A stretch of 64,000 bases of DNA from Candidatus Omnitrophota bacterium (GCA_041653595.1 JBAZFB010000005.1:32075-96074); one strand, 5' to 3'; positions 7,009 to 31,614 are shown, numbered from the stretch's first letter. Notes: generated from the sequence alone by a model not told the origin. Numbers and translations are program-made.

Positions 7009-7009
7009 A

Positions 7010-7705: not shown

Positions 7706-8407
7706 ATGCCCAAAGTCGTTTTTGATACGCTTACTTTCATGTCAAGGCTCGAGCGTTTGAAGTCCTGGTTTTACAAAAAGATCGAGCCATACCTCGGAGA
7801 GAGGATCCTGGAGGCGGGATGCGGGACCGGGAACCTGACTTCTTACCTGTCGGGCAAACAGCTGGTGCTGGCAGTAGACAATGACTCCGACATGCTGGAT
7901 GAATGCAGGAGCAGGTTTTCGGATAATCCGAACGTAAAATTCCTAAGATACGACTTAACCGACCCGTCGATAACAAAGCTTTCGGAAAATAACCTGGATA
8001 CGGTCGTTTGCGTCAATACCCTCGAACACATAAAGGATGACGAGGCGGTTTTGAGGAATTTCAATTCCGTATTAAGCGAAGGCGGCACCCTTATCTTGCT
8101 GGTACCCGCCTTCCAATCTTTATACTGCAGCCTTGACAGGGCGGCAGGCCACTACAGGAGGTACAGCCTGCCAGAGGTATCGGAAAAGATAGAAAAATGC
8201 GGTTTTACCGTCGATAAGAAGATGTATTTTAATTTTTTCGGGCTGATCGGGTGGTTCTTCAACGGGAAGGTCTTGAAAAAAGAAAAGATCTCCACCAGGC
8301 TGTTGAGGATGTTTAATTTCTTGACTCCGTTGCTGGATTTTTTCGAGAACCTGATAGGGCCTCCTATAGGCTTATCCATCATATTGGTATGCAGGAAGAG
8401 GGAATGA
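7706..8407 (+). CDS. Class I SAM-dependent methyltransferase
   Basis: ILEAGCGTGNL (motif I GxGxG) and VLEHI...LKPGG-like downstream motifs. Confidence 0.8.
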   Translation: MPKVVFDTLTFMSRLERLKSWFYKKIEPYLGERILEAGCGTGNLTSYLSGKQLVLAVDNDSDMLDECRSRFSDNPNVKFLRYDLTDPSITKLSENNLDTVVCVNTLEHIKDDEAVLRNFNSVLSEGGTLILLVPAFQSLYCSLDRAAGHYRRYSLPEVSEKIEKCGFTVDKKMYFNFFGLIGWFFNGKVLKKEKISTRLLRMFNFLTPLLDFFENLIGPPIGLSIILVCRKRE

Positions 8408-9861
8408 AGGTCTTATTTTTCCACAGGAACGCGGAATGGATGGGGATCGAATATCTTTCGAGCGCCCTGAAGAGGGCGGGGCACGACACCGAACTGCTCT
8501 TCGACCCCGGTTCCGGCGACGTGGAGTACAAGTTTAATATCATTGAAAGGTATTTCGACGTTTCCGGTAAAATGATAAAAAAGGCGAAGGCCTATAAACC
8601 CGACCTCATAGCGTTCTCTTGTTTGACCAATTTATACCCCTGGGTCTCCAAGATGGCTTCCCTGCTGAAGAAAGAAATGGCTGTGCCTATCATTGCGGGA
8701 GGCCTTCATCCCACCATTCTGCCTGAGTTCGTCATAAAAAACCCCGATATAGACATGATATGCGTCGGTGAAGGCGAAGAGGCCCTGGTAGAATTGGCGA
8801 ATAGCATGCAAAACGGTAAGATAGACTATTCGATAAAAAATATCTGGTTCAAGAAGGACGGGGAGATCGTCCGGAACCCGCCGAGGCCCCTGATGCAAGA
8901 CCTGGACTCCCTGCCTTTCCCGGACAAGGATATGTTCAGGCGGTACGGATGTTTTTCGGACAGGCTTTACGTCATGACCGGCAGGGGATGCCCGTACCAA
9001 TGCACATATTGTTTCAATTCTTACTACAGGAAATTGTTGAACCAGCCGGGCCATTCTTATACCCGCCGCAGGAGCGTCGGAAGGGTGATAGAAGAGCTTA
9101 AATATTTTAAGTCCAGGTACCGCATCAAGGAGGTCTTCTTCTATGACGATGTCTTCACAATAAATGACGAATGGATCAAGGACTTTGCCGCCAGGTATAA
9201 GAAGGAGATAGGCTTGCCTTTCAAGGTCCTGGTGCATCCCAAAAATGTAAAAAAAGACATTATGATACTCTTGAAAGAAGCGGGGTGTATTTATGTGGAT
9301 ATCGGCTTGGAGTCCGGGAGCGAGGATGTAAGGTATAAATTGCTGAAAAGGAACATGAGCAACGACGATATCATTAATACGGCCAGGGTCCTGAAGGAGG
9401 TAGGGATCAAGTTCTGCACATTGAACATAGTCGGTTTCCCGACCGAGACGACCGAACAGATGTGGGAGACTTATGAGTTAAATAGGAAGATAAAACCCGA
9501 CGGGACCATCGTGTCGATTTTTTACCCCTTTCCGAAAACAGAGCTGGCGGATTTCTGCGCTGAACGCGGGTTCATAAAAGAAGGCGAATATGAAAAGATC
9601 TGTAACGGCGAGGGAGGGTATAAACAGGGGTCTCTTATCAGGGATATAGACGAGAAAGAGGCCTTGAGGCTGCAAGTGTTGATCCCTTTCCTGACGAGAA
9701 TGCCGGCGTTTTTGCACCCAGCGATCAAGAGGATCCCGATCAACGGCTTCACCAGGATCATTTCCATACCGTTCCTTTCCGTTCCCAGGAACGCCTATAT
9801 ACGCATTAAGGAATCTTTGGTCATGTTCGTGAAATCCCATTGGAATTACCTGTGGGTATGA
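8404..9861 (+). CDS. B12-binding domain-containing radical SAM protein (paralog 1)
   Basis: N-terminal B12-binding-like Rossmann region (KPDLIAFSCLT...IIAGGLHPT) followed by GRGCPYQCTYC (CxxxCxxC). ATGA overlap with the upstream methyltransferase. Confidence 0.85.
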   Translation: MKVLFFHRNAEWMGIEYLSSALKRAGHDTELLFDPGSGDVEYKFNIIERYFDVSGKMIKKAKAYKPDLIAFSCLTNLYPWVSKMASLLKKEMAVPIIAGGLHPTILPEFVIKNPDIDMICVGEGEEALVELANSMQNGKIDYSIKNIWFKKDGEIVRNPPRPLMQDLDSLPFPDKDMFRRYGCFSDRLYVMTGRGCPYQCTYCFNSYYRKLLNQPGHSYTRRRSVGRVIEELKYFKSRYRIKEVFFYDDVFTINDEWIKDFAARYKKEIGLPFKVLVHPKNVKKDIMILLKEAGCIYVDIGLESGSEDVRYKLLKRNMSNDDIINTARVLKEVGIKFCTLNIVGFPTETTEQMWETYELNRKIKPDGTIVSIFYPFPKTELADFCAERGFIKEGEYEKICNGEGGYKQGSLIRDIDEKEALRLQVLIPFLTRMPAFLHPAIKRIPINGFTRIISIPFLSVPRNAYIRIKESLVMFVKSHWNYLWV

Positions 9862-9865
9862 ACAG

Positions 9866-11257
9866 ATGAATGTTTTACTGGTAAAGCCCTATAACCTTAG
9901 CGATCATATCCAGCCTTCCCTGGGCCTGGGCTATTTAGCCGAGTCGTGCAGGAGGGCCGGGCATAATGTGACGATACTCGATTGCATTAAAAAGGGCATG
10001 AAGGCGGATGCCTTGATCCATATGGTCAAAGAGGTAAAGCCCGACGTCGTCGGTTTCCAATGCTATACGTTCGATCTGAAATTCGTCAAGGAGGCCCTGG
10101 AAGGATGCAAAAACCTGAAGCCAGGCTTGATAACTGTCCTGGGCGGGCCGCATCCTTCTGCCGCCCCCGAAGAGAGCTTTAAGTATTTCGGCGCTTCTTT
10201 GGATTTTATCTTCGTAGGGGAAGCCGAAAAAGGCCTTCCTATGTTGCTGGAAAGGCTGGAAAGAAAAGGACCCCGGGACCTTTCGGATATCCCCGGGTTA
10301 GGATGGAGAGAGGACGGCCGTGTTCGCATAAATCCCCAGATATTCGTTGAAGACCTGGACAGCTTGGGCATGCCGGCATGGGACCTTATCCGGCCCGAGG
10401 AATATCCCGAATGCCAGCACGGCGCCGTTTTCCGGAAGTTCCCCATAGCGCCTATAATGGTCACCCGCGGTTGCCCTTTTTCCTGCACGTTTTGCGCGGG
10501 GAACATAATAGGGGGGAAAAAGATACGGAAACATAGCGTGGATTTCATTCTCGGGCAGATCAAGTATCTGTATGATAAGCATGGCATACGGGAATTCCAT
10601 ATTATAGATGATAACTTTACTTTTGACAGGGCCTACGCAAAGGAATTACTGCGGAAACTCGCCGATCTGCACTTGGATATAAGCTGGGCAACTCCAAACG
10701 GGGTCCGCATAGACTGTCTGGACGAAGAAATGCTTGTGCTGATGAAAAAAAGCGGCCTTTACCTTATTTCATTAGGGATAGAATCAGGCTCAGACAGGGT
10801 ACTTGCCTTAATGAAGAAAGGGACCACCACCGATAAGATACGGAAGGGGATAGATATGATCCGCCGGTTTAAGATAGATGTGGCGGGATTTTTTATCGTG
10901 GGCTTCCCGGGTGAGAAAGAAGAGGATATCAGGAAAACGATACGTTTTTCGCTTGATCTGGGTTTGATCAGGGCGAATTATTTTACATACCTGCCTTTTC
11001 CCGGCACGGCCAGTTATAAGAAATTGGCTTCAGGGGGGAAATTGGGCGGCGTTGACTGGGACAGGTTTTATTTTATGAGCGCCCCGTACGCGGGAGACGG
11101 CTTGAGCCAAAAACAGGTCAAATCTTTGCAGCGCGAAGCTTTCTTAAGATTTTATATGCGGCCGGGAATAATGATAAAGAACATATTGGCGATCAAGTCT
11201 CCGCGGCATTTCAAGTTCCTCCTGAAGAGGTTCTTCCATTGGGTCATCATGACATGA
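9866..11257 (+). CDS. B12-binding domain-containing radical SAM protein (paralog 2)
   Basis: KPDVVGFQCYT...VLGGPHPS B12-like region, then TRGCPFSCTFC (CxxxCxxC). Confidence 0.85.
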   Translation: MNVLLVKPYNLSDHIQPSLGLGYLAESCRRAGHNVTILDCIKKGMKADALIHMVKEVKPDVVGFQCYTFDLKFVKEALEGCKNLKPGLITVLGGPHPSAAPEESFKYFGASLDFIFVGEAEKGLPMLLERLERKGPRDLSDIPGLGWREDGRVRINPQIFVEDLDSLGMPAWDLIRPEEYPECQHGAVFRKFPIAPIMVTRGCPFSCTFCAGNIIGGKKIRKHSVDFILGQIKYLYDKHGIREFHIIDDNFTFDRAYAKELLRKLADLHLDISWATPNGVRIDCLDEEMLVLMKKSGLYLISLGIESGSDRVLALMKKGTTTDKIRKGIDMIRRFKIDVAGFFIVGFPGEKEEDIRKTIRFSLDLGLIRANYFTYLPFPGTASYKKLASGGKLGGVDWDRFYFMSAPYAGDGLSQKQVKSLQREAFLRFYMRPGIMIKNILAIKSPRHFKFLLKRFFHWVIMT

Positions 11258-12546
11258 AAAAAGTGATATCGATCGCCTTGGCGATCTTTGCCATTGCCCT
11301 GTTGCCGCGGCTTTATGTAGCCCTTTCTGACAGGCAGGTCTTTACACCCGACTCCATTTATTACAACGGACTCGCCGGGAACATTCTCGAGGGCAAGGGA
11401 TTCAGCGTGGGCGGGAAGCCTACCACTTTCAAAGAGCCGTTTTATCCTTTTTTTCTGGCGGCGGTATATCATATATTCGGCAATAACTACGCGGCCGTTA
11501 AAGTTATCCAGGCGATCATAGGCGCGCTGACATGCGTAATAATTTTTATGATAGCAAGGCGATTATTCGACGCCAAAACAGCCGTTTTGGGCGCGTTGAT
11601 AGGCTGTTTTTATCCGGCATTTATTAGAACTACGGAACTTATGATAACAGAGCTCCTTTATACTTTTTTGCTTATCTCTATCATATTCTTCCTTCTAAGG
11701 TATATCCAGGGCGGCGGTTATGGGAATTTGGCCTTTTGCGGGGCCGCGCTGGGGATAGCTTCGCTCACGCGCTCTGTTATAGTCCTGCTTCCCGTTTTTA
11801 TCCTTCTGTTGGCGGGAAAGATCTTTCTCTCCCAGGCCCGCAGCGTCAAAAAGTATATTATAAGCGCGGCCATCCTGCTTGCTTTTTTTATACTGCCGAT
11901 AGCTCCCTGGACCGTCAGGAACTGGAAAGTGGCCCATCGTTTTATCCCCATTTCCACCACGATGGGAATAGGGCTTTATAGCTCATATGTGCCCAAAGAG
12001 GGGAAATTATACGGCTTTATCGCCAGTGATGAAGTCGTGGAAAAGTCCAGGTCATTAGGATCTGAGGCCGCGCAAAGCGATTTCCTGGCAAAAGAGGCGC
12101 TAAAATATATAAAAAACAACCCTCTCCGCGTTCTAAAACTGGAGGTACTAAAAACCGTTTACTTCTGGAGCGTCTTCGATTGGGAGATCCTGGGTAACGG
12201 CGTGTATAATTACATGTATGCGTTCATTATGCCGTTTTTCATCTTAGGCATATTCGTTAATTCCAAAAGGTCCTGGGAGCTGGCCCCGGTCTATCTGCCT
12301 ATTATCTATTCTTTTTGCGTTTCTTTGGTGTTCTACGGTTCGCCGAGGTTCCGCCTGCCTATCGAGCCGTATATTATCATGATCGGCGCCGCGGGAATTT
12401 TCCATTTTATCCGCAGGTCCAGGAATAAGATTCTTCCCGGCCTATTAATAAGCGGTTACTTTATGTTGAACGTATGTTTTTATGCGGCCTCATATGAAAC
12501 AAAAGTGTTCTTCAGGTCCATATTCCAAAAGATAGGGCTCTGGTAG
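11254..12546 (+). CDS. GT-C fold membrane glycosyltransferase, ArnT/PMT (GT39/GT83-like, PMT_2) family
   Basis: Multi-TM protein with DSIYYNGLAGNILEGKGFS...FKEPFYPFFLAAV, the periplasmic-loop signature of polyprenyl-phosphate-sugar-dependent GT-C enzymes. ATGA overlap upstream. Confidence 0.7.
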   Translation: MKKVISIALAIFAIALLPRLYVALSDRQVFTPDSIYYNGLAGNILEGKGFSVGGKPTTFKEPFYPFFLAAVYHIFGNNYAAVKVIQAIIGALTCVIIFMIARRLFDAKTAVLGALIGCFYPAFIRTTELMITELLYTFLLISIIFFLLRYIQGGGYGNLAFCGAALGIASLTRSVIVLLPVFILLLAGKIFLSQARSVKKYIISAAILLAFFILPIAPWTVRNWKVAHRFIPISTTMGIGLYSSYVPKEGKLYGFIASDEVVEKSRSLGSEAAQSDFLAKEALKYIKNNPLRVLKLEVLKTVYFWSVFDWEILGNGVYNYMYAFIMPFFILGIFVNSKRSWELAPVYLPIIYSFCVSLVFYGSPRFRLPIEPYIIMIGAAGIFHFIRRSRNKILPGLLISGYFMLNVCFYAASYETKVFFRSIFQKIGLW

Positions 12547-13509
12547 ATGTTAAATGAAGAGTTGAAGGATAAATTGGCTTGTCCGGGCTGTTTGGGGGAC
12601 CTGTCATTCGGCGAAGGGGACTTTACTTGTAATAAGTGCCGCAGGAAATACCCTGTGGTCGACGGCATCCCTGTACTGATAAATGAGGACAAAAGCTTAT
12701 TCAGGATAAAGGATTTCCTGGGCAGGTCTTCGACTACCATCGAGTTAAGCGGCTTTAATAAAGGGTTACTGAGGAAGATATGGAGCAGGGTCACCCCGGA
12801 GCTTACCCTTAATATTTACAGCAAAAGAAATTTCAAAAAATTCATCAAAGAGGCATGTGATTCCGCGGCGAGGCCCGCGATATTGGTCATCGGGGGAGGA
12901 GTTTTGGGCTCGGGCCTGGCGGAAATTACCAAAAATGACAAAATAGTGCTCATCGAGAGCGACGTTTCTTTCGGCCCGCGGACGCAAATAATTTGCGACG
13001 CGCACAACCTGCCGTTCGTCGATTCTTCCCTCGACGGAGTGATCGCGCAGGCAGTGCTCGAGCATGTCACGGACCCGTACAAATGCGTAAGCGAGATATA
13101 CCGCGTCTTGAGACCGAAAGGGCTTGTGTATAGCGAAGTCCCTTTTATGCAGCAAGTCCATATGGGGAGATATGATTTTACAAGGTTCACCGATTTGGGG
13201 CACAGGAGGCTTTTTAGGAATTTCGAGGAGATAGAAAGGGGCGTAGCCGGAGGGCCTGCCAGCGCCCTGGCGTGGAGCCTCAGGTATTTTTTTGTGAGTT
13301 TTACCGACTCCCGTTTAATCAAAAAGATATTAAGCGCGTTCTCTATTTTCGCGTTCTTTTGGATCAAATATTTCGATTTTTGTCTTGTAAAAAAGGCCTC
13401 TTCCGCCGACGCGGCCGGAGGGTTCTATTTCCTCGGGAGAAAAAGCGATAAGACCGTGACGGATACCGAAATAGTCTCGCTCTATAAGGCAAAGGGCAAA
13501 GGATCTTGA
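12547..13509 (+). CDS. Trm112-like zinc-ribbon domain fused to a class I SAM methyltransferase
   Basis: N-terminal CPGC...CNKC...YPVVDGIPVL (Trm112/YcaR-like), then LVIGGGVLG and VLEHVTDPYKCVSEIYRVLRPKG methyltransferase motifs. Confidence 0.7.
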   Translation: MLNEELKDKLACPGCLGDLSFGEGDFTCNKCRRKYPVVDGIPVLINEDKSLFRIKDFLGRSSTTIELSGFNKGLLRKIWSRVTPELTLNIYSKRNFKKFIKEACDSAARPAILVIGGGVLGSGLAEITKNDKIVLIESDVSFGPRTQIICDAHNLPFVDSSLDGVIAQAVLEHVTDPYKCVSEIYRVLRPKGLVYSEVPFMQQVHMGRYDFTRFTDLGHRRLFRNFEEIERGVAGGPASALAWSLRYFFVSFTDSRLIKKILSAFSIFAFFWIKYFDFCLVKKASSADAAGGFYFLGRKSDKTVTDTEIVSLYKAKGKGS

Positions 13510-14924
13510 ATAAAATAGCGATATTTGCATATATTTTACTGGGGATCGCCCTCGGCTTTATTTTGACGTTTTATACCGCCGGTTTATTCGTTCTATCCCT
13601 TTTTTTGGCGTCACTGCTCGTAATAAAACTGTTTGTTAGAAAGGAATCTTCAGGTTTCCTGATAAAACTTTTCATCATAAGTTTTATCCTCAGGGCGGTA
13701 ATGTGCCTGGTCAATTATAATGTAGGCCTCGAGCCTCCTTTCTGGGGAGGAGATACCCAGCCTGACGCCGCAGTCTACAACGTTAACGCTTTTTATATCG
13801 CTCATTTGCTGAAGGATAATCCCGCGGAAGAAAGTCTTGCCAGGGCCAGGGACCCGTTCTTGGACAGGATGCTTGATAAGACGCGATACTTCCATGACAA
13901 CAGGCTGCCTGACCTCGGCGGATACCAATTCGACAGCAATGTTTTTGGGTTGGGGGTTTTGTATGCGTGGCTCGGCTATGCGCCGGTCGCGGCTAAAATG
14001 ACCAACAGCCTTATTTGCTGCTTAAGCATTATTCTCGTGTATTTGATCTCCCGCCGGCTCTTTGGAGAGGAGAAGCCCTCGCGTATCGCCGCCGTCATTT
14101 TTGCGTTCTTCCCGTCTATTTTCTACTGGTCTGTCACGGGTTTACGCGACAGCGTCAGTAATTTTTTGCTTTTGGCTTATTTATTATTCCTTGTCAAACT
14201 GATCGCGGAAAAGAAGTTTAAATATATATTCTGGGCCCTGTTTTTTATATATTTATCGAACCTCTTCAGGACTAAGTTATCAATATCATTATTGGCAGGA
14301 TTGGGCGTGGTTTCTGTATTCAGCCTTCTAAAAGCGCTTAAGGTAGGGAAAAACACTATTCTAAGGGTATCTTTGATCTTCGCCGTATATTTTATCTTAG
14401 TGTTTGTATTTGCGGATAGGACCGTGATAACCTCAAAGATCGTAAATACCGCTAATTTCATAGCCCGTGTTAACCTTGCCCAGGTCGTTTCTGAGGGGGC
14501 ATTCCATCCTTCTCAGACAAATTACAGGATATATTCAGATCTGGTTTACCAGCAGGGTAAGCTGACGCCCGGAGACGTCTTTTCTTTCGGATACCTGGCG
14601 ACTATCCTAAAAGCGATCTTATATTTTTTCTTTGCGCCGTTCCCGTTCGGGAACTGGACCTTGAGCTTCCTGCCTTTTTATCCGCAGGTCATTTATTGGT
14701 ATTTAATGGCCCCGTTCGCCGTAAGGGGATGGCTGCTTTTCTTAAAGAAAGATAAATATGCCTCGCTTGCCGTCACGGCTTTACTCTTGATACTTATCCT
14801 GCCTGCCGCTCTTTTCGAAAGCAATATAGGGACTGCTTTCCGGCATAAGGATATGTTTATGCCTGTCGCTTTCATGTTCGCGGCTTATGCCCTTACAAGA
14901 CAGCAGGCGGTCAATCGCTGCTAA
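13506..14924 (+). CDS. Polytopic membrane protein, GT-C-like (PMT_2/ArnT-like) glycosyltransferase or glycan polymerase
   Basis: More than 10 predicted TM helices. RRLFGEEKPSRIAAVIFAFFPSIFYWSVTGLRDS resembles the GT-C conserved region. TTG start with TTGA overlap. Confidence 0.5.
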   Translation: MNKIAIFAYILLGIALGFILTFYTAGLFVLSLFLASLLVIKLFVRKESSGFLIKLFIISFILRAVMCLVNYNVGLEPPFWGGDTQPDAAVYNVNAFYIAHLLKDNPAEESLARARDPFLDRMLDKTRYFHDNRLPDLGGYQFDSNVFGLGVLYAWLGYAPVAAKMTNSLICCLSIILVYLISRRLFGEEKPSRIAAVIFAFFPSIFYWSVTGLRDSVSNFLLLAYLLFLVKLIAEKKFKYIFWALFFIYLSNLFRTKLSISLLAGLGVVSVFSLLKALKVGKNTILRVSLIFAVYFILVFVFADRTVITSKIVNTANFIARVNLAQVVSEGAFHPSQTNYRIYSDLVYQQGKLTPGDVFSFGYLATILKAILYFFFAPFPFGNWTLSFLPFYPQVIYWYLMAPFAVRGWLLFLKKDKYASLAVTALLLILILPAALFESNIGTAFRHKDMFMPVAFMFAAYALTRQQAVNRC

Positions 14925-16120: not shown

Positions 16121-16121
16121 A

Positions 16122-17213
16122 ATGAGGATATTATTTTGGGTCCCATATCCGCACGAGGGAGCAAGCAACAGGTATAGGATAGAGCAGTACCTCCCTTATT
16201 TAAAAAAGGAAGGCATATCCGCCGACATCCATCCCTTTTGGAACAGCGCCGCATTCAAGGTTTTATATGAAAAGGGGAACTATTTAACGAAAATATTTTT
16301 CTTTTTAACGGGGACAGCCTACCGCTTTCTGGACATATTCCGGCTGCCCCGGTACGACGTCGTTTTTATACACAGAGAGGCTTTTCCGCTCGGCAGCTGT
16401 TTCTTCGAATCGGTTGTGAGTTTTGTCAGAAAACCGGTAATATTCGATTTTGATGACGCAATATTCCTGCCTTTTACCAGCCCGCAGAATAATTTTGTAG
16501 AAAAGTACAAAAAACCGCAGAAAATAGCCAAGATAGTGGAACTTAGCGACTACGTGATAGCCGGAAATGACTATCTGGCCGAATTTGCGCTGCGCCATAA
16601 CCGGTATGTTTCCGTGATACCCACTCCCGTCGATCTGGATAAGTATTATCCGGCCGCCAGGGACATCCGGGAAAAAGTGGTCGTTGGCTGGATAGGCAGC
16701 GTCACAACGATGGATTTCTTAAGACCGATGGCCGGCGTATTTGCGAAGTTATCGGAGCGGTTTCCCAATGTCGAATTTAAGATAGTCGGCGGGGATCTCG
16801 ATAACGGTAAAATTCCGGGCGTGATCTGCGTGCCATGGTCGCTTGAAGAAGAATTAAGCCAATTGAGGACGTTTGATATAGGGATAATGCCCATGCCGGA
16901 TAACGAATGGACAAGAGGGAAATGCGGGTTTAAGGCTATCCTGTATATGAGCATGGCAATACCTTCGGTATGCTCTCCGGTGGGCATGAACAAGGAGATA
17001 ATAGCGGACGGGGTTAACGGTTTCTTGGCTTATGACGAAGATCAATGGCTAAAAAAACTCACTCTATTGATCGAAGACTCCGGGCTTAGGAAGAGAACGG
17101 GGATTGAAGCGAAAAAGACGGTGGAAGAAAGATATTCGGTTAAGGTAAATGCGCCTAAATTTATAGCTGTTTTAAAAGAAGCTTATAATAAAAACAGGCA
17201 GGGCCAAATATAA
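16122..17213 (+). CDS. Glycosyltransferase family 4
   Basis: GT-B architecture with WIGSVTT...KAILYMSMAIPSVCSPVGMNKEII, typical of Glyco_trans_1-like enzymes. Confidence 0.75.
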   Translation: MRILFWVPYPHEGASNRYRIEQYLPYLKKEGISADIHPFWNSAAFKVLYEKGNYLTKIFFFLTGTAYRFLDIFRLPRYDVVFIHREAFPLGSCFFESVVSFVRKPVIFDFDDAIFLPFTSPQNNFVEKYKKPQKIAKIVELSDYVIAGNDYLAEFALRHNRYVSVIPTPVDLDKYYPAARDIREKVVVGWIGSVTTMDFLRPMAGVFAKLSERFPNVEFKIVGGDLDNGKIPGVICVPWSLEEELSQLRTFDIGIMPMPDNEWTRGKCGFKAILYMSMAIPSVCSPVGMNKEIIADGVNGFLAYDEDQWLKKLTLLIEDSGLRKRTGIEAKKTVEERYSVKVNAPKFIAVLKEAYNKNRQGQI

Positions 17214-19114
17214 TGTGCGGTATTTGCGGGATCGTCGATCATAGAGGGGGCGGTATTACCGGAGAAAAGACGATAAATGATATGTGCAGGGAATTGAGGC
17301 ACAGGGGCCCGGATGACGGGGGTATTTATCTGAACAGCGGGATGCCTTCCGTAGCCCTGGGCCATAGGAGACTAAGCATCATTGATCTGTCCCAGGCAGG
17401 CCACCAGCCGATGAGCAATGAGGACGGGTCGGTCCAGCTGGTCTTTAACGGAGAGATATATAATTACAAAGATCTAAAAGATGAACTGAAAATGAGAGGG
17501 CATATATTCAAGTCTGATTCAGACACCGAGGTCATGGTACATCTTTACGAGACTTACGGAGAGGAGTGCGTAAGGCATCTCCGCGGCATGTTTGCTTTTG
17601 CGGTATGGGATGAAAAAAAGAAAACCCTTTTTTTGGGGAGAGACAGGATAGGGAAAAAGCCGCTTCTTTATTGTCGATCAGGGAATATTTTTTGTTTTGG
17701 GTCTGAATTTTCATCAATTTTGGCAAGCGGTTTAATCAATAAAAGTATAAATCTCAAGGCGGTTAATTATTATATGAATTTCGGTTATGTGCCGGCCCCG
17801 TTCACGATCTATAACGGCATCTTTAAGCTTCCGGCGGCGCATACCTTGACATTGAAAGACGGAAATATCCGCCTGGAACGGTACTGGCAGGTTGATTATT
17901 CCGGCAAAATAAATATTTCGGAAGAAGAGGCCTCGGAGGAAGTCTTAAGATTGCTCAAAGAAGCGGTAAAAATCAGGTTATACAGCGATGTGCCCTTGGG
18001 GGCCTTCTTAAGCGGAGGAATCGACTCAAGCGCGGTAGTAGGCCTGATGAGCCAGGTATCCGGCGCTAAAGTAAAGACTTTTTCAATAGGTTTTGAGGAA
18101 TCCGATTACAACGAGCTTAAATACGCAAGGATGGTCGCGGGAAAATTCGCGACGGAACATCACGAGTTTATCGTGAAACCTAACGCACTTGAGATCCTTC
18201 CTTTGTTGGTAGAAAGGTACGGGGAACCTTATGCCGACTCCTCCTGTATACCTACTTATTACGTCTGCCGGGAGACAAGGCGGTTCGTGACGGTAGCCCT
18301 GAACGGCGACGGCGGCGACGAGGCATTCGGAGGGTATGAGAGATACCAGGCAATGCTGATCTCGGAAAACCTGCAAAAATTACCCATTTATTTAAGAAAC
18401 ATGATAAGCGGGTTAGCGGGCATCCTGCCCGATTCTGTAAACCAAAAAGATACGCTCAGGCGGTTAAAGAGATTTTTAGGCAGCGCGGGGCTGCCGGCGG
18501 GAGAGAGGTACCTGAGGTGGGCAGGTATCCTGGGGGAGGTCCGCCCGGATGAGTTGTATTCGGACGAGTTTTTAAAAGAGACCCGTTCAGCCGGTCCTTT
18601 AGCTATCCTGGAACCGTACTTAAACTGCCCCGGCAAACCGGATCTGCTGGACCGCCTTCTTTTGGCCGATACCTCGACGTACCTGCCCGATGACCTGCTG
18701 GTCAAGGTTGATATAGCCAGTATGGCTAACTCCCTCGAAGCAAGGTCTCCGTTCCTCGACCATAAACTCATCGAGTTCGCCGCAAAGCTGCCTTCCGATC
18801 TTAAGATCAGGGGGGCCGCAAAGAAATACATCCTGCGAAAGGCCGTCAAAGGGCTGCTTCCGGAAGAAAATATCCGCAGGAGAAAGATGGGGTTCGGCAT
18901 GCCGGTCGGGCAATGGTTCAGAGGGGAACTCAAAGGTTTCTTATGCGACACAGTGCTTTCCGCGGCCTCTCTTAAAAGGGGGTATTTTAAACCCGGTGCG
19001 GTAAAGAGGATGGTCGAAGACCATATCTCCGGGAAAAAAGATTACGCTTTCCAGTTATGGGCGATCTTGATGCTCGAATTGTGGCACAAAAAATTCATGG
19101 ATTCCGCGATATGA
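17213..19114 (+). CDS. asnB: Asparagine synthase (glutamine-hydrolysing) family amidotransferase
   Basis: MCGICGIV N-terminal nucleophile Cys2 (GATase type 2) and the SGGIDSS PP-loop ATP pyrophosphatase motif. Length 633 aa. Confidence 0.9.
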   Translation: MCGICGIVDHRGGGITGEKTINDMCRELRHRGPDDGGIYLNSGMPSVALGHRRLSIIDLSQAGHQPMSNEDGSVQLVFNGEIYNYKDLKDELKMRGHIFKSDSDTEVMVHLYETYGEECVRHLRGMFAFAVWDEKKKTLFLGRDRIGKKPLLYCRSGNIFCFGSEFSSILASGLINKSINLKAVNYYMNFGYVPAPFTIYNGIFKLPAAHTLTLKDGNIRLERYWQVDYSGKINISEEEASEEVLRLLKEAVKIRLYSDVPLGAFLSGGIDSSAVVGLMSQVSGAKVKTFSIGFEESDYNELKYARMVAGKFATEHHEFIVKPNALEILPLLVERYGEPYADSSCIPTYYVCRETRRFVTVALNGDGGDEAFGGYERYQAMLISENLQKLPIYLRNMISGLAGILPDSVNQKDTLRRLKRFLGSAGLPAGERYLRWAGILGEVRPDELYSDEFLKETRSAGPLAILEPYLNCPGKPDLLDRLLLADTSTYLPDDLLVKVDIASMANSLEARSPFLDHKLIEFAAKLPSDLKIRGAAKKYILRKAVKGLLPEENIRRRKMGFGMPVGQWFRGELKGFLCDTVLSAASLKRGYFKPGAVKRMVEDHISGKKDYAFQLWAILMLELWHKKFMDSAI

Positions 19115-20951: not shown

Positions 20952-21041
20952 CGGTACACCTAGTCTAAGTCTGGTTAATTTATTCTGTTAATGGCAACAT
21001 TTTATCACAAAAGTCGATAAAACGGAACATATACGTCGAAG
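20952..21041. promoter_or_regulatory. Divergent intergenic region (minus-strand GT4 / plus-strand radical SAM paralog 3); likely bidirectional promoter
   Basis: This 90-bp gap between divergently oriented starts is the only strand switch and the only sizeable gap inside the glycan locus. AT-rich stretches include ttaatttattctgttaatgg. Confidence 0.3.
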
Positions 21042-22547
21042 ATGGATATGAAGGATAAAAAACAATTCCGCGTCCTGTTCGCCTCGCTGTTTAACGATGA
21101 GGCCTTGAATATAAGGCTGTTACATTCGATCGTCTACCATAAAGGTTACGATGCCCGGATGGTCTTTATCAAGAAATTCCCCATAAGGAACCAGAGAGGA
21201 CAAGAGTACCTGAAAAAGTCGTTTTTACACGAACCGAATGAATTGACAGATGCAGAATTACAGATCTTTGCGGATTTCGTCGTAGATTATAAACCCGATG
21301 TAATAGCATTCAGCCTGGTATCATCGAACTTCGAGCTTTATAAGAAAATATATAGCAAGATCCGCGGCCTAGGCGATTTTACCATTATAATAGGGGGCTG
21401 GCAGGCATCCCTCAACCCCGAGCATACCATACAATATTGCGATGCGTTATGTATCGGCGAGGGAGACGAAGCCATATCCGAGGTCGTTGACAACTTGTTC
21501 AACGGCCGGCCGATCGACCATTTGCAGAATTTATGGGTCAATAAAGGCGGGGCTACGGTCAAAAATGGCGTGCGGCCTCTGGTTAAGGACCTAAACAGCA
21601 ATCCCGTGCCGGTTTTTGATGATGAGACCGTATATTCCGTCGAAGACGGCAGTTTGATCCCGGGAGAGCCTTTTGTGAATAATGTCCGGTACGGCATCAT
21701 GGCCAGCAGGGGTTGCCCCTATAAATGCACATATTGCTCCAATGAATACATGGCAAACAAGGTTTATCACCGGGACTGGTCTAGGACCAGGCACAGGAGC
21801 GTCAGCCACGTGCTGTCGGAACTGTCCGAGATCAGGGCGAGATTCCCGAAAATAGAAAGGATAGATTTCCTGGATGAAGTTTTTATCCCGGACAAGGCAT
21901 GGTTGGAGGAATTTTGCGGCAAGTATCCGAAAGAGATCGCCCTGCCTTTTTACTGTTTTTTCTATCCCGGGACATGCTCAAGGGAGACGGCAAAAGCGCT
22001 GAAGGGAGCCATGTTGAACGGGGTATGGCTCGGCGTACAATCGGGCTCCGAGAGGATAAGGAGGGATATCTTCAAAAGGTTTTACCCAAATGAAAAAGTC
22101 CTGAAACAGGCGGAAGTATTCAAGGAATACGGCATAAATGTGAAATACGACTTCATTTTCGATAACCCGTTCGAAACATTCGAAGACTCGCTTGAAAGCA
22201 TCAAACTTATCCTGGAGCTGCCCCAGCCGTTCTACCTTAACCTGTTTTCTTTAAAATATTTTCCAAAGACCGAAATAACCAGTATGGCCCTGGAGCGCGG
22301 GTTCATCACAGAAGCCGATACAGATGATTTTTATAAACCGCCTGAAGGCGTGCAATATTATAAAGTAAATATCGACGGGAGGGACAACGACGTTTCTTTT
22401 ATCAACCGTTTGGCAATGTATATCTCTTTCCTGGCCCTGGAAGAGAAAGTAAACAAGAAAGATATAAACGAAATGGTAGACCGGTATTATGATAGCAGGG
22501 ATCTGGGTCCTGTGACAAAATTACTGAATCCCTACCTTACCGCCTAA
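21042..22547 (+). CDS. B12-binding domain-containing radical SAM protein (paralog 3)
   Basis: KPDVIAFSLVS...IIGGWQAS B12-like region, then SRGCPYKCTYC (CxxxCxxC). Confidence 0.85.
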   Translation: MDMKDKKQFRVLFASLFNDEALNIRLLHSIVYHKGYDARMVFIKKFPIRNQRGQEYLKKSFLHEPNELTDAELQIFADFVVDYKPDVIAFSLVSSNFELYKKIYSKIRGLGDFTIIIGGWQASLNPEHTIQYCDALCIGEGDEAISEVVDNLFNGRPIDHLQNLWVNKGGATVKNGVRPLVKDLNSNPVPVFDDETVYSVEDGSLIPGEPFVNNVRYGIMASRGCPYKCTYCSNEYMANKVYHRDWSRTRHRSVSHVLSELSEIRARFPKIERIDFLDEVFIPDKAWLEEFCGKYPKEIALPFYCFFYPGTCSRETAKALKGAMLNGVWLGVQSGSERIRRDIFKRFYPNEKVLKQAEVFKEYGINVKYDFIFDNPFETFEDSLESIKLILELPQPFYLNLFSLKYFPKTEITSMALERGFITEADTDDFYKPPEGVQYYKVNIDGRDNDVSFINRLAMYISFLALEEKVNKKDINEMVDRYYDSRDLGPVTKLLNPYLTA

Positions 22548-22549
22548 AG

Positions 22550-23374
22550 ATGGATAAGTCCGGAATAACGGGGAAGACTTACGGGTTTCTATGGACAAGG
22601 CCGGATGTCTTAAAGCCGGTAGAAAAATGGCATTTCGACAGGATGCAGGATGTAATAGATGAGCCGATAGTAAGGGGGGAGATCGGCATAGATGTGGGCT
22701 CAGGCTGCGGTTTTGACAGTTTTATCATGGCAAGGGACAACCCCTCTGTCCGGATAGTCAGCATGGATATTTCGGACGGGGTATTTACGGAAAAAAAGAT
22801 CACAGCCGGGCTTAATAATATTGAGATTGTCAAGGGTTCCGCTTTGGAGATCCCTTTAAACGGCGGGATATTCGATTTCGCCTATTCATTCGGCGTTTTG
22901 CACCATACCCCGGAACCTAGAAAAGGCTTAGCCGAGATCGCGCGGATTTTAAAGAAAGGCGCGCCTATTTTCCTGTATCTCTATGAAGACCATTCCGAGA
23001 ACTTTTTTAAATATATGGCCATCAAATTGATCGATCTTCTAAGGATGCTCACGACAAGGGTCCCCAAGAGGGTCCTTTATTTATTGTGTTATGCGTTTTC
23101 GCCGGTCATTTATTTATTTTTTACCGTCCCTTCAAAAATATTGGGAATGTTTAAAGCAACGGAAAAGATAGCCGAGAATGTCCCTTTTAATTTTGGAAAG
23201 GGGCCATTCTCGTTGAGGGGCGACCTTTACGATAGATTCGGCGCGCCCATCGAGCATAGGTTCGGCAGGTCTGAATTAACGGGTCTTTTGGAAGAAGCCG
23301 GGTTTACAAGGACAAAAATTTCGAGGATGAAGGATACGGCCGGTTGGGTCTGCTGGGGGCATAAGAGAAAATGA
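22550..23374 (+). CDS. Class I SAM-dependent methyltransferase
   Basis: GIDVGSGCGFDS (motif I) and VLHHTPEPRKGLAEIARILKKGAP (motif post-II/III). Confidence 0.8.
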   Translation: MDKSGITGKTYGFLWTRPDVLKPVEKWHFDRMQDVIDEPIVRGEIGIDVGSGCGFDSFIMARDNPSVRIVSMDISDGVFTEKKITAGLNNIEIVKGSALEIPLNGGIFDFAYSFGVLHHTPEPRKGLAEIARILKKGAPIFLYLYEDHSENFFKYMAIKLIDLLRMLTTRVPKRVLYLLCYAFSPVIYLFFTVPSKILGMFKATEKIAENVPFNFGKGPFSLRGDLYDRFGAPIEHRFGRSELTGLLEEAGFTRTKISRMKDTAGWVCWGHKRK

Positions 23375-25245: not shown

Positions 25246-25274
25246 AATAAGATGCCAAACAAAGGAGAAGGAAA

Positions 25275-25805
25275 ATGAAGTTTATCGATGAGAAAGGGAA
25301 AATATTCGGCAGGATCAACCTAATTGATTTTCTGGTGATCCTGTTCTTGCTGGGCCTTACGCCGGTCTTTTATTTAGGGAATAAGGCATTGACGCATAAA
25401 TGGGTGGTTAAGGATTACAAGAAAATCTCGATAAAGATCAAATGCGCCAGCGTCATGCCCGAATTAGCGGGTTTTTTCCGCGAAGGGGACTTAGTCAAGG
25501 ATAACGACGGCAATACGATAGGGGTCTTAAAGAAGATCATCAGCAACGTACCTTCGGAGATCATCACTATAAACCAGTTCAACCTGAGGAACAACGATTA
25601 TTTTTTGGTCCCGAACCCGAGCGGCAGGGATGTCGTGTGCTTATTTGACGTAAATTGCACGGAAGAGAGAGGGGTTATATTTTTTAACAATTACGCCGTG
25701 AAGATAGGGAATAGCGTTGTATTAAATACTGATAGTTATAATTTCCAGGGCGTGATAATAGATTTTGACCGTACGGCCTTAGCGGAGAAAAAAGGGGATA
25801 AATGA
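25275..25805 (+). CDS. DUF4330-like protein
   Basis: MKFIDEKGKIFGRINLIDFLVILFLLG N-terminus matches the remembered DUF4330 consensus. Has a single TM segment. Confidence 0.5.
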   Translation: MKFIDEKGKIFGRINLIDFLVILFLLGLTPVFYLGNKALTHKWVVKDYKKISIKIKCASVMPELAGFFREGDLVKDNDGNTIGVLKKIISNVPSEIITINQFNLRNNDYFLVPNPSGRDVVCLFDVNCTEERGVIFFNNYAVKIGNSVVLNTDSYNFQGVIIDFDRTALAEKKGDK

Positions 25806-31607: not shown

Positions 31608-31614
31608 GTCCAAT

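What the first reader, a model, noticed from the sequence alone, without database searches (positions are those of the whole stretch)
7706..23374. Three paralogous B12-binding radical SAM enzymes interleaved with four SAM methyltransferases inside a glycosyltransferase locus
Three cobalamin-binding radical SAM proteins are embedded in the glycan locus at 8404-9861, 9866-11257 and 21042-22547. Each has a B12-like Rossmann region and a CxxxCxxC motif. Two of them are flanked by class I methyltransferases (7706-8407 and 22550-23374) through ATGA/4-nt overlaps. A Trm112-like::methyltransferase fusion lies between them. Class B radical SAM enzymes typically methylate unactivated carbon or phosphorus centres, or do other radical chemistry on sugars or aminoglycosides. 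Three copies plus four conventional methyltransferases in one sugar-assembly operon predicts an unusually heavily tailored glycan, possibly C- and O-methylated. Loci with this combination are not well characterised biochemically.
Basis: partly seen in the sequence, partly recalled or inferred. Interest (0 to 1): 0.75.

Follow-up and report, generated by a model that had tools for sequence, protein, structure and literature searches.

The report
Radical SAM sugar-tailoring genes in glycan locus
An uncultured Omnitrophota bacterium carries three uncharacterised vitamin-B12-type radical SAM enzymes and three ordinary methyltransferases inside a cell-surface sugar locus, two of them in a gene cassette shared across many phyla that probably builds an unusually modified sugar on a lipid carrier.

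Summary
Three class-B-type radical SAM genes (8404-9861, 9866-11257, 21042-22547) have a B12-binding domain above the Pfam cut-off and a CxxxCxxC motif. They sit in a roughly 37-kb glycan locus of a Candidatus Omnitrophota contig. I found three class I methyltransferases in the range, not four. The rS3/MT3 junction is a 2-nt gap, not an overlap.

None of the three reaches the cut-off of any NCBIfam family, including HpnJ, BchE, PhpK, MgmA, AprD4, TsrM and TIGR04072. Pairwise identity is only 24-34%.

- **Cassette:** rS1 and rS2 lie in a tightly packed run of genes: a small GT2 resembling polyprenyl-phosphate-sugar synthases, MT1, rS1, rS2, a GT-C, a Trm112-MT and a second GT-C. Its core recurs in other Omnitrophota, Patescibacteria and Scalindua.
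- **Second pair:** rS3 orthologs sit with methyltransferases in other glycan loci, including a Sulfurimonas flagellin/NeuB/Maf island.
- **Wider pattern:** across 80 species-level genomes, glycan genes and further B12-type rSAMs concentrate next to rS1 relatives.

The glycan link is well supported. The chemistry and the substrate stage are inferred: probably C-methylation, possibly on a lipid-linked sugar. I found no paper describing this association.

The parts
7010..7705 (+). GT2s: small soluble GT2 (231 aa) resembling polyprenyl-phosphate monosaccharide synthases.
   Evidence: PF00535 E=3.6e-38. Best PDB matches are Dol-P-Man synthase 5MLZ (E=1.5e-24, residues 1-210), ArnC and GtrB. Best NCBIfam matches are AglJ, PpgS and ArnC, all below cut-off. 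No TM segment. A GT2s-like gene lies within 3 kb of 15 of 38 rS1-like genes.
7706..8407 (+). MT1: class I SAM methyltransferase (233 aa) with a hydrophobic C-terminus
   Evidence: Methyltransf_25/11/12/23 E=1e-13 to 1e-17. No NCBIfam cut-off reached. Zero gap after GT2s and an ATGA overlap with rS1. An ortholog sits upstream of rS1 in L001/L002.
8404..9861 (+). rS1: class-B-architecture radical SAM enzyme (485 aa; alternative start 8389 gives 490 aa)
   Evidence: PF02310 69 bits and PF04055 99 bits. CPYQCTYC at residue 196. AF2 pLDDT 91.6. Foldseek best match is MgmA 9CCB at 1.8e-23. Best NCBIfam match is HpnJ at 138 bits against a 578 cut-off. Orthologs of 64-87% identity occur in Omnitrophota and Patescibacteria.
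9866..11257 (+). rS2: class-B-architecture radical SAM enzyme (463 aa) with a basic, aromatic C-terminal tail
   Evidence: PF02310 72 bits and PF04055 97 bits. CPFSCTFC at residue 203. Best NCBIfam match is the Sden_1168 P-methyltransferase family at 180 bits against a 575 cut-off. Always next to rS1 in close orthologous loci L001, L086, L087 and L118.
11254..12546 (+). GT-C 1: multi-pass membrane glycosyltransferase of the PMT_2 (ArnT/PMT-like) family
   Evidence: PF13231 E=4.5e-19. Multiple hydrophobic segments. ATGA overlap with rS2. Called as 430 aa on L118. Same position in L001 and L087.
12547..13509 (+). Trm112-like zinc ribbon fused to a class I methyltransferase (320 aa)
   Evidence: PF03966 E=1.3e-5 and Methyltransf_11 E=7e-13. 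NCBIfam Trm112_arch E=1e-6. TrmMT-like genes also lie beside class-B rSAM runs in L011 and L085.
13506..14924 (+). GT-C 2: second PMT_2-family membrane protein (472 aa)
   Evidence: PF13231 E=1.2e-6, 29.2 bits against a 26.1 cut-off. About nine hydrophobic segments. TTGA overlap with the preceding gene.
21042..22547 (+). rS3: class-B-architecture radical SAM enzyme (501 aa). First gene of a second + strand unit, after a 90-nt gap from a divergent GT4 gene.
   Evidence: PF04055 58 bits and PF02310 38 bits. CPYKCTYC at residue 225. Orthologs of 45-51% identity lie in glycan loci and in a flagellin/NeuB/Maf island, each with a methyltransferase nearby.
22550..23374 (+). MT3: class I SAM methyltransferase (274 aa) with one hydrophobic segment
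   Evidence: Methyltransf_11 E=4e-15. PDB matches include a D-glucose O-methyltransferase, 6UV6, at E=1.2e-8. 2-nt gap after rS3 and an ATGA overlap with the next gene.
23371..25245 (+). GT4-DUF218 fusion glycosyltransferase, translationally coupled to MT3
   Evidence: PF00534/PF13692 plus PF02698. The ortholog in L001 sits directly upstream of the GT2s-MT-rS1-rS2 cassette.
14924..19114 (+). Operon continuation: two GT4 glycosyltransferases and an AsnB-like amidotransferase
   Evidence: Pfam results. The AsnB-like protein scores 667 bits on the XrtA/PEP-CTERM amidotransferase model TIGR03108, against a cut-off of 817.
28357..33695 (+). Locus framework: WecA-like initiating transferase fused to CoA_binding_3, an O-antigen-ligase-like Wzy_C protein, and two GT9 heptosyltransferase-like genes

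Best explanation
The three genes encode functional class-B-type radical SAM enzymes: an N-terminal cobalamin-type Rossmann domain followed by a [4Fe-4S]/SAM barrel. They belong to large, uncharacterised subfamilies whose job is tailoring sugars of cell-surface glycans.

**Module 1 (7010-14924).** This is a tightly packed cassette. The proposed sequence of events is:
1. A soluble GT2 of the DPM1/ArnC/PpgS/AglJ type loads a monosaccharide onto polyprenyl phosphate.
2. rS1 and rS2 modify unactivated positions of that sugar by radical chemistry. Cobalamin-dependent C-methylation is the most likely reaction. MT1 and the Trm112-MT add O- or N-methyl groups.
3. After flipping across the membrane, the two PMT_2 GT-C enzymes transfer the decorated sugar outside the cytoplasmic membrane. 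The acceptor would be the LPS-like glycan built by the rest of the locus, or a protein.

**Module 2 (21042-25245).** rS3 and MT3 form a second radical-plus-conventional methylation pair, coupled to a GT4-DUF218 glycosyltransferase.

**Shown:** domain architecture, motifs, fold, gene packing, conserved synteny and the association with glycan genes.

**Inferred:** methylation as the chemistry, the lipid-linked stage of the substrate, and the acceptor.

**How the confidence breaks down:** about 0.7 that these are sugar/glycan-tailoring class B enzymes, and about 0.3 for the specific route of C-methylation on a polyprenyl-phosphate-linked sugar. The single figure given is a compromise between the two.
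For: - **Architecture and motifs:**. GG, GEGE and CxxxCxxC are essentially invariant in 157 related ORFs from the fetched loci.
- **Fold:** the rS1 model has pLDDT 91.6, and its best structural matches are all class I B12-rSAM structures.
- **GT2s identity:** its best matches are polyprenyl-phosphate glycosyltransferases only: PfDPMS at 1.5e-24, ArnC, GtrB, AglJ and PpgS.
- **GT-C identity:** both are PMT_2 family.
- **Gene packing from 7010 to 14924:** successive gaps are 0, -4, +4, -4, 0 and -4 nt.
- **Cassette conservation:**
  - L001 (87% identity): GT2s-MT-rS1-rS2-PMT_2-x-PMT_2.
  - L087 (70%): MT-GT2s-rS1-rS2-GDSL-PMT-x-PMT_2.
  - L086, Tagabacteria (72%): Ugd-epimerase-GT2s-rS1-rS2.
  - L003 (73%) and L005 (Scalindua) also carry it.
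- **Neighbourhood counts:** of 38 rS1-like genes, 15 have a GT2s-like gene within 3 kb, 17 an rS2-like gene, 19 another rS1/rS3-like gene and 10 a methyltransferase.
- **Distance decay in 80 species-representative loci:** glycan-gene density falls from 1.9 to 0.5 per 10 kb with distance from the rSAM. Extra rSAMs fall from 1.9 to 0.3 per 10 kb.
- **rS3 orthologs:** they lie with methyltransferases in a glycan locus (L115), a CMP-sugar-type locus (L116) and a flagellin-Maf-NeuB island (L117).
- **Membrane hints:** the methyltransferases have hydrophobic C-termini and rS1 and rS2 have basic, hydrophobic ones, which fits action at the membrane.
- **Precedent:** most characterised class B enzymes are methylases, and the nearest solved structure is the C-methylase MgmA (PMC12931638).
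Against: - No family cut-off is reached, so no function transfers by homology.
- Close relatives by sequence or structure include non-methylating enzymes: AprD4 (a diol dehydratase, best profile match at 3.2e-25), OxsB, HpnJ and BchE.
- The position aligned with the lower-axial Trp of TokK/CysS is Asn in rS1, Phe in rS2 and Ser in rS3. In relatives it is mostly G/N/D/S/P. PMC12931638 associates a hydrophobic residue at this position with radical methylases. The alignment in this loop is uncertain.
- Cobalamin binding cannot be proved from sequence. AprD4 has a similar N-terminal domain, and by my recollection it does not bind cobalamin.
- GT-C genes were detected only near the closest orthologs. 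The L117 island has the rSAM and methyltransferase genes but no GT2s or GT-C. The substrate could therefore be a nucleotide sugar or an N-acyl side chain rather than a lipid-linked sugar.
- One 47%-identical Asgard homolog (L088) sits among acyl-CoA genes.
- No flippase was identified in the cassette.
Confidence: 0.45

Rival explanations
1. The context is the same (glycan tailoring) but the chemistry differs. One or more of the three enzymes perform a non-methylating radical reaction on the sugar. Candidates are ring contraction to a cyclitol-type unit, as proposed for HpnJ and Cds on lipid-linked hexoses and shown for OxsB; 1,2-diol dehydration or deoxygenation as in AprD4; or epimerisation. 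The neighbouring class I methyltransferases would then supply all the methyl groups.
For: - HpnJ is the best NCBIfam match of rS1, and BchE and AprD4 are also listed.
- AprD4 is the best PDB match of the rS1-family profile, and OxsB is also matched.
- Polar or small residues occupy the position aligned with the TokK/CysS lower-axial Trp in rS1, rS3 and most relatives. PMC12931638 links a hydrophilic lower face to non-methylating TsrM and OxsB.
- HpnJ and Cds are proposed to act on a hexose already attached to a lipid (PMC13459092).
- A class I methyltransferase next to each rSAM module could mean the rSAMs are not the methyl donors.
Against: - All family scores are far below cut-off: HpnJ 138 against 578, AprD4 59-85 against 500.
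- Methylation is the commonest class B function.
- No partner reductase for an AprD4/AprD3-type deoxygenation lies in the cassette.
- A ring-contracted carbasugar on a phosphate carrier would not be an obvious GT-C donor.
Confidence: 0.25
2. The enzymes tailor sugars as soluble nucleotide-sugar intermediates or their N-acyl substituents, before any transfer to lipid. The link to GT2s and the GT-C genes would reflect only the delivery route of the finished sugar.
For: - rS3 orthologs and rS2-like enzymes lie in a flagellin/NeuB/CMP-transferase/Maf island without GT2s or GT-C (L117), and in a CMP-sugar-type locus (L116).
- All three rSAMs lack TM helices.
- Known sugar-modifying class B enzymes such as GenK act on soluble pseudo-oligosaccharides (literature recalled; reviews listed).
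Against: - The tightest conserved neighbour of rS1 is GT2s, with no nucleotide-sugar enzyme consistently inside the cassette.
- The hydrophobic and basic C-termini of rS1, rS2 and the methyltransferases suggest membrane proximity.
Confidence: 0.3
3. The substrates are not sugars but lipids. Candidates are polyprenyl or acyl chains, membrane-spanning or hopanoid-type lipids, or lipid A acyl chains, as for Grs, Hgm/Gmm and HpnP/HpnR.
For: - Many class B rSAMs modify lipids (PMC13459092).
- Omnitrophota carry homologs of membrane-spanning-lipid enzymes (10.1101/2023.10.20.563219).
- The lipid-biosynthesis family TIGR04072 and HpnJ are among the best matches.
- The L088 homolog lies among acyl-CoA genes.
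Against: - No lipid-synthesis genes are in the window.
- Neighbours across phyla are glycosyltransferases, epimerases and NulO genes.
- Scores on lipid families are far below cut-off.
- The cassette occurs in Patescibacteria and in DPANN archaea (including Woesearchaeota), whose lipids differ widely.
Confidence: 0.07
4. The co-location is incidental. Generic or decayed rSAM genes were carried along in a horizontally mobile, low-GC glycan island and have no role in the glycan.
For: The locus has lower GC than the rest of the window. Glycan loci are hypervariable in Omnitrophota (10.64898/2026.06.07.730766).
Against: - The ORFs are intact and all catalytic motifs are conserved.
- The genes are translationally coupled.
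- Orthologs are 64-87% identical with the same gene order in other genomes.
- The distance-decay of glycan genes around relatives holds across 80 species.
Confidence: 0.02

Closest known systems
Cobalamin-dependent (class B) radical SAM C-methyltransferases: MgmA/QCMT (PDB 9CCB), TokK, CysS, and GenK/GenD1 of gentamicin biosynthesis
   Same: - N-terminal Rossmann cobalamin-type domain followed by a CxxxCxxC radical SAM barrel.
- MgmA is the best structural match.
- By recollection, GenK and GenD1 C-methylate sugar carbons. By recollection, CysS extends an O-methyl group that a conventional methyltransferase installed; this parallels the methyltransferase-plus-rSAM pairing seen here.
   Different: - Sequence identity is only 14-20%.
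- The C-terminal domain of TokK/CysS is absent.
- The TokK/CysS Trp residues are not conserved.
- The substrates of the known enzymes are peptides or antibiotics, not envelope glycans.
- No NCBIfam cut-off is met.
Polyprenyl-phosphate-sugar side-branch systems: ArnC/ArnD/ArnT (lipid A Ara4N), GtrA/GtrB/Gtr* (O-antigen glucosylation), PpgS/Rv3779 (mycobacterial GalN), AglD/AglS (Haloferax)
   Same: - A small GT2 related to DPM1/ArnC/PpgS/AglJ is paired with GT-C transferases.
- In the Arn and PpgS systems the sugar is edited while on the lipid carrier before GT-C transfer (established knowledge).
   Different: - In those systems the editing is hydrolytic (deformylation or deacetylation). Here two radical SAM enzymes and methyltransferases sit between the synthase and the GT-C genes.
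- GT2s lacks the TM helices of GtrB and ArnC.
- No GtrA or ArnE/F-type flippase was found.
HpnJ (hopanoid cyclitol ether formation) and calditol synthase Cds
   Same: Both are radical SAM enzymes proposed to rearrange a hexose already attached to a lipid (PMC13459092). HpnJ is the best NCBIfam match of rS1.
   Different: - rS1 scores 138 bits against a cut-off of 578.
- No hopanoid or GDGT genes are nearby.
- The proposed chemistry of HpnJ and Cds is ring contraction, not methylation.
AprD4 (apramycin C3' deoxygenation; PDB 6FD2)
   Same: A sugar-modifying radical SAM enzyme with the same two-domain fold. It is the best PDB match of the rS1-family profile (3.2e-25).
   Different: - By recollection, AprD4 does not use cobalamin, and it works with a reductase partner, AprD3.
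- No such partner is in the cassette.
- NCBIfam scores are 33-85 bits against a cut-off of 500.

Membership tests
Class B (cobalamin-binding) radical SAM superfamily group | CxxxCxxC motif for the radical SAM [4Fe-4S] cluster within a PF04055 domain | tested here: met
   One motif in each protein. PF04055 scores 98.7, 96.9 and 58.3 bits against a 29.5 cut-off. The three Cys are invariant in 157 relatives.
Class B (cobalamin-binding) radical SAM superfamily group | N-terminal Rossmann-type B12-binding domain (PF02310) preceding the barrel | tested here: met
   PF02310 scores 69.2, 71.7 and 38.1 bits against a 32.1 cut-off. GG and GEGE motifs are conserved. The rS1 model matches MgmA, TsrM, CysS, OxsB and TokK over both domains.
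Class B (cobalamin-binding) radical SAM superfamily group | Actual binding of cobalamin | not testable with these tools
   AprD4 shares the fold and, by my recollection, lacks the cofactor. This needs UV-vis or mass spectrometry of purified protein, or a cofactor-aware structure prediction.
Radical methylating class B enzymes (TokK/CysS type) | Hydrophobic lower-axial residue (TokK W76) and an aromatic residue between cobalamin and the cluster (TokK W215), per PMC12931638 | tested here: inconclusive
   By profile alignment, CysS W75 aligns with N76 of rS1, F in rS2 and S in rS3. The Trp after the CysS motif aligns with N, G and N respectively. These residues vary between methylase subfamilies, and the loop alignment is uncertain.
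HpnJ (TIGR03471) | Score at or above the curated equivalog cut-off (577.6 bits) | tested here: not met
   rS1 137.8, rS2 152.8 and rS3 83.5 bits.
   114.7, 121.9 and 87.9 bits. NCBI describes the family as lipid biosynthesis, not exosortase-associated.
MgmA/QCMT (TIGR04014), PhpK (TIGR04479), Sden_1168 P-methyltransferase (NF038361), BchE (TIGR02026), TsrM (TIGR04428), AprD4 (NF033070), HpnR (TIGR04367) | Score at or above each curated cut-off | tested here: not met
   The best case is rS2 on NF038361, at 180.3 bits against 575. All others are lower relative to their cut-offs.
GenK / Fom3 / Grs / Hgm clades | Phylogenetic placement with characterised members | not tested
Polyprenyl-phosphate monosaccharide synthases (DPM1/ArnC/GtrB/PpgS/AglJ-type GT2) | GT-A catalytic domain most similar to proven polyprenyl-P glycosyltransferases over its full length | tested here: met
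   PfDPMS at 1.5e-24 over residues 1-210, then ArnC and GtrB. AglJ 137 bits and PpgS 78 bits are the best NCBIfam matches.
Polyprenyl-phosphate monosaccharide synthases (DPM1/ArnC/GtrB/PpgS/AglJ-type GT2) | Score at or above a curated equivalog cut-off, or demonstrated lipid-phosphate acceptor | tested here: not met
   AglJ 137 against 325, PpgS 78 against 370 and ArnC 72 against 529. The acceptor is not testable here.
GT-C glycosyltransferases of the PMT_2 family (ArnT/PMT-like) | PF13231 above the gathering score, plus multi-pass membrane topology | tested here: met
   69.7 and 29.2 bits against a 26.1 cut-off. Eight to nine hydrophobic segments each. No PDB sequence match for GT-C 1.

The most novel reading that the evidence does not exclude
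GT2s-rS1-rS2-GT-C is a previously undescribed, horizontally spread cassette. In it, cobalamin-dependent radical SAM enzymes alkylate or rearrange a monosaccharide while it is bound to polyprenyl phosphate. A GT-C enzyme then installs this sugar on the cell envelope. The product would be a new class of C-branched or otherwise radical-modified envelope sugars in Omnitrophota, Patescibacteria, DPANN archaea, anammox bacteria and others. It would also be the first radical editing step on a lipid-linked glycosyl donor.
Probability: 0.3. Interest if true: 0.75.

Novelty: new variant of a known kind. Interest (0 to 1): 0.58.

Why it matters
Class B radical SAM enzymes are one of the largest pools of unassigned enzyme chemistry. 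Almost all characterised members work on antibiotics, cofactors, peptides or membrane lipids. This locus and its relatives show whole subfamilies dedicated to cell-surface glycan loci. They often occur in multiple tandem copies, up to about nine in one locus, and mostly in uncultivated lineages.

If they methylate or rearrange sugars at unactivated carbons, envelope glycans of these organisms contain sugar types that current glycan chemistry has not catalogued. That would bear on phage and host recognition, on biomarkers, and on enzymatic routes to C-branched sugars.

The cassette offers a compact experiment: four soluble enzymes plus a lipid carrier.

Tried and rejected
- **Family assignment.** NCBIfam scans of all three rSAMs, the methyltransferases and GT2s reached no curated cut-off, so no name can be transferred.
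- **Literature.** Searches combined B12/class B radical SAM with polysaccharide, O-antigen, LPS, C-methylated sugar, flagellin glycosylation and Omnitrophota. They returned only gentamicin-type pathways, lipid enzymes and general reviews.
- **Fourth methyltransferase.** I looked for one in 7706-23374 and found none.
- **Promoter and terminator scan of 6.5-26 kb.** Counts were within chance (32 found against 28.6 expected; 32 against 23.7), so it is not used.
- **Rfam scan for a cobalamin riboswitch or other RNA in the window.** No match.
- **Reading the contig upstream of the window.** One look-up found no record. The other returned a shorter contig that starts inside the locus.
- **AFDB fold search.** The library was unavailable.
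- **PDB matches of MT1 and MT3.** These were generic class I methyltransferases and gave no substrate information.
- **Lower-axial residue as a test of methylase versus non-methylase.** The position is too variable and the alignment too uncertain to decide.
- **Metagenome scan for close orthologs.** It returned few long contigs.

Full report
**1. What is in the sequence**

The region 604-38037 of the window is one long, almost entirely + strand glycan-assembly locus.
- It contains GT2, GT4 and GT9 genes, two PMT_2 GT-C genes and NDP-sugar epimerases/reductases.
- It also has an AsnB-like amidotransferase, a WecA-like initiating transferase and a Wzy_C/O-antigen-ligase-like gene.
- From 38 kb onwards the window holds housekeeping genes: UDG, PriA, def, fmt, GAPDH, PGK, TPI, Opp, ThiG, LeuCD/LeuB-like and Asd.
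- The PGK protein is 100% identical to a protein that NCBI names as from a 'MAG: Candidatus Omnitrophota bacterium' on a 111,574-bp contig. All close relatives are Omnitrophota.
- The glycan locus has lower G+C (0.44-0.49 between 6 and 26 kb) than the housekeeping part (0.51-0.55).

**2. Check of the observation**

The three ORFs at 8404(8389)-9861 (rS1), 9866-11257 (rS2) and 21042-22547 (rS3) each carry PF02310 and PF04055 above the Pfam gathering scores. Each has a single CxxxCxxC motif.

Class I methyltransferases lie at 7706-8407 (MT1), 12547-13509 (Trm112-like zinc ribbon plus methyltransferase) and 22550-23374 (MT3). I found three methyltransferases, not four.

Junctions:
- MT1/rS1 is an ATGA overlap.
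- rS3/MT3 is a 2-nt gap.
- MT3 overlaps the next gene, a GT4-DUF218 fusion, by ATGA.

Pairwise identity is 34% (rS1-rS3), 27% (rS1-rS2) and 24% (rS2-rS3). These are members of different subfamilies, not recent duplicates. An independent gene call on another assembly of the same locus (L118) agrees with the ORFs.

**3. Are they real class B enzymes?**

- An AlphaFold2 model of rS1, built on 25 homologs, has mean pLDDT 91.6 and pTM 0.90.
- Foldseek against the PDB gives, in order, MgmA/QCMT (9CCB, 1.8e-23), TsrM, AprD4, CysS, OxsB and TokK. These are the 'class I' B12-radical SAM structures (classes as in PMC12931638).
- In 157 related ORFs from the loci fetched here, the GG and GEGE motifs of the N-terminal domain and the three cluster cysteines are essentially invariant.
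- Cobalamin binding itself cannot be shown from sequence.

**4. Family membership**

No NCBIfam model is matched above its curated cut-off. The best scores are:

| Protein | Best NCBIfam model | Bits | Cut-off |
|---|---|---|---|
| rS1 | HpnJ | 138 | 578 |
| rS2 | Sden_1168 P-methyltransferase family | 180 | 575 |
| rS3 | TIGR04013 | 97 | 251 |

It is now described as a lipid-biosynthesis family. The enzymes are therefore unassigned.

The position aligned with the lower-axial Trp of CysS/TokK is Asn in rS1, Phe in rS2 and Ser in rS3, and it varies among relatives. This shows they are not of the TokK/CysS subfamily. It does not settle the chemistry.

**5. The cassette around rS1 and rS2**

The gene at 7010-7705 is a 231-aa soluble GT2.
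- Its best solved relatives are Pyrococcus Dol-P-Man synthase (1.5e-24, full length), ArnC and GtrB.
- Its best NCBIfam matches are AglJ, PpgS and ArnC.
- All of these are polyprenyl-phosphate monosaccharide synthases, although no cut-off is reached.

The gene order is GT2s, MT1, rS1, rS2, GT-C 1 (PMT_2), Trm112-MT and GT-C 2 (PMT_2). Successive gaps are 0, -4, +4, -4, 0 and -4 nt.

The same core recurs elsewhere:
- L001/L002 (rS1 87% identical): GT2s-MT-rS1-rS2-PMT_2-unknown-PMT_2.
- L087 (70%): MT-GT2s-rS1-rS2-GDSL-PMT-unknown-PMT_2, followed by another rSAM and another small GT2.
- L086, a Tagabacteria (Patescibacteria) contig (72%): UDP-sugar dehydrogenase-epimerase-GT2s-rS1-rS2.
- L003 (73%): rSAM-rS1-GT2s-rSAM-rSAM, followed by an uncharacterised gene and then Wzy_C and Wzx genes.
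- Candidatus Scalindua japonica (L005): PMT, GT2, rSAM, GT2s, rSAM, rSAM.

**6. Breadth of the association**

rS1 has thousands of relatives in metagenomes, from Omnitrophota, Patescibacteria, Nanoarchaeota, Asgard archaea, Scalindua and others. The species-representative genome collection adds many further phyla, including Nitrospinae.

Of 38 genes scoring at least 300 bits to rS1:
- 15 have a GT2s-like gene within 3 kb.
- 17 have an rS2-like gene within 3 kb.
- 19 have another rS1/rS3-like gene within 3 kb.
- 10 have a methyltransferase within 3 kb.
- 21 have other glycan genes within 10 kb.

Many of these contigs are short, so the counts are lower bounds.

In the 80 loci from species-representative genomes:
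- 47 contain a recognisable glycan gene and 34 a further class-B rSAM.
- Glycan-gene density falls from 1.9 per 10 kb within 1 kb of the rSAM to 0.5 at 8-10 kb.
- Extra rSAMs fall from 1.9 to 0.3 per 10 kb.
- Methyltransferases are concentrated within 2 kb.

This decline with distance is an internal control for real linkage. Some loci hold many copies: L085 has about nine and L099 at least four close together. One exception is the Asgard homolog L088 (47% identity), which lies among acyl-CoA-metabolising genes.

**7. rS3 and MT3**

rS3 starts a second + strand unit after a minus-strand GT4 gene. Its orthologs (45-51% identity) occur in three contexts:
- L115: a glycan locus with a methyltransferase, GT4 genes and the same WecA-like::CoA_binding_3 fusion as here.
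- L116, Candidatus Magnetobacterium bavaricum: a locus with a CMP-sugar-type cytidylyltransferase, an epimerase, methyltransferases, an oxidoreductase, an aminotransferase and a second B12-rSAM.
- L117, Sulfurimonas: a position between flagellin/Maf/CTP_transf_3/NeuB/methyltransferase genes and FliD/FliS, next to a second B12-rSAM.

The last is a flagellin nonulosonic-acid glycosylation island. The pairing of a class-B rSAM with a class I methyltransferase is therefore a recurrent sugar-tailoring unit, independent of the type of glycan.

**8. Mechanism proposed**

*Shown:* architecture, fold, gene packing, conserved synteny and glycan linkage.

*Inferred:*
- GT2s loads a sugar onto polyprenyl phosphate.
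- rS1 and rS2 act by radical chemistry on the sugar. Cobalamin-dependent C-methylation is most likely, because it is the commonest class B function and the nearest structure, MgmA, is a C-methylase.
- MT1 and the Trm112-MT add heteroatom methyl groups.
- The GT-C enzymes transfer the finished sugar outside the membrane. This follows the ArnC/ArnD/ArnT, Gtr, PpgS/Rv3779 and AglD/AglS logic, in which a lipid-linked monosaccharide is edited and then transferred (established knowledge).
- The hydrophobic or basic C-termini of the methyltransferases, rS1 and rS2 fit work at the membrane surface.
- A variant worth testing is CysS-like extension of an O-methyl group installed by the neighbouring methyltransferase.

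**9. Rivals**

- **Non-methylating radical chemistry.** This would be HpnJ/Cds/OxsB-type ring contraction or AprD4-type dehydration. It is favoured by the identity of several best matches and by polar residues at the TokK/CysS Trp positions (PMC13459092).
- **Action on nucleotide sugars or N-acyl groups rather than on the lipid-linked sugar.** It is favoured by L116 and L117.
- **Lipid substrates.** Possible in principle (PMC13459092), but not supported by any neighbouring gene.
- **Chance co-location.** Excluded by the synteny.

**10. Novelty**

The held literature contains no paper that links class B radical SAM enzymes to polysaccharide, LPS or flagellin-glycan loci. Recent reviews of B12-radical SAM enzymes and of lipid-modifying radical SAM enzymes do not mention such a system.

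The enzymes belong to a known superfamily and the delivery logic is known. Their combination is not described: radical SAM editing placed between a polyprenyl-P-sugar synthase and GT-C transferases, spread across many uncultivated phyla. I rate it a new variant of a known kind. Interest is moderate to high, limited by the fact that chemistry, substrate and product are all inferred.

Noticed in passing
window 27-1290 (Cyclase PF04199 ORF 27-656; HAD ORF 604-1290): A putative cyclase/arylformamidase-like gene and a HAD phosphatase open the window. Orthologous pairs (44%/54% identity in Magnetobacterium L116; 36%/42% in Omnitrophota L087) sit beside a 2-hydroxyacid dehydrogenase, an epimerase and further B12-radical SAM genes. 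This may be a conserved sub-module for a glycerate-like or other acyl substituent. Its upstream part is cut off by the window edge.
   Followed up: partly
window 6000-26000 versus 32000-64000: The part of the glycan locus holding the rSAM genes has G+C of 0.44-0.49, against 0.51-0.55 in the housekeeping region. rS1 is 72% identical to a Tagabacteria (Patescibacteria) protein. Both suggest horizontal exchange of the cassette between very distant lineages.
   Followed up: partly
L085 (1-21059) and L099 (3006-13228): Some genomes carry very large runs of class-B radical SAM paralogs. L085 has about nine ORFs in 21 kb, with a small GT2 and a Trm112-MT-like gene. L099 has at least four close together.
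   Followed up: no
L117 (Sulfurimonas MAG) 423-12872: A flagellin glycosylation island has the order flagellin, Maf, CMP-sugar synthetase, NeuB, methyltransferase, two B12-radical SAM genes, FliD and FliS. This implies radical tailoring of a flagellar nonulosonic acid, which I did not find described.
   Followed up: partly
L088 (Promethearchaeota MAG) 9502-10977: A 47%-identical rS1 homolog lies among acyl-CoA ligase, thiolase, enoyl-CoA hydratase and CoA-transferase genes. It is not in a glycan locus, so the family may not be uniform in substrate.
   Followed up: no
window 28357-30147: A WecA/MraY-family domain (PF00953) is fused to a C-terminal CoA_binding_3 domain of the type found in WbaP/WcaJ-class initiating transferases. 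The same 596-aa architecture recurs in L115.
   Followed up: no
window 19057-19824: A 255-aa ORF has one N-terminal hydrophobic segment and a weak transglutaminase-core match (E=8e-5). It overlaps the end of the AsnB-like gene by 58 nt. It has no NCBIfam match, and its role in the locus is unknown.
   Followed up: no
window 44311-46344: Two tandem, diverged galactose-1-phosphate uridylyltransferase-like (HIT-family) genes lie just upstream of GAPDH-PGK-TPI.
   Followed up: no
window 25275-26152: A DUF4330 protein (176 aa, N-terminal TM segment) and a 116-aa hydrophobic ORF with no family match sit between the GT4-DUF218 gene and the next GT4. The small ORF could be the missing lipid-linked-sugar flippase, but nothing supports this yet.
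   Followed up: no
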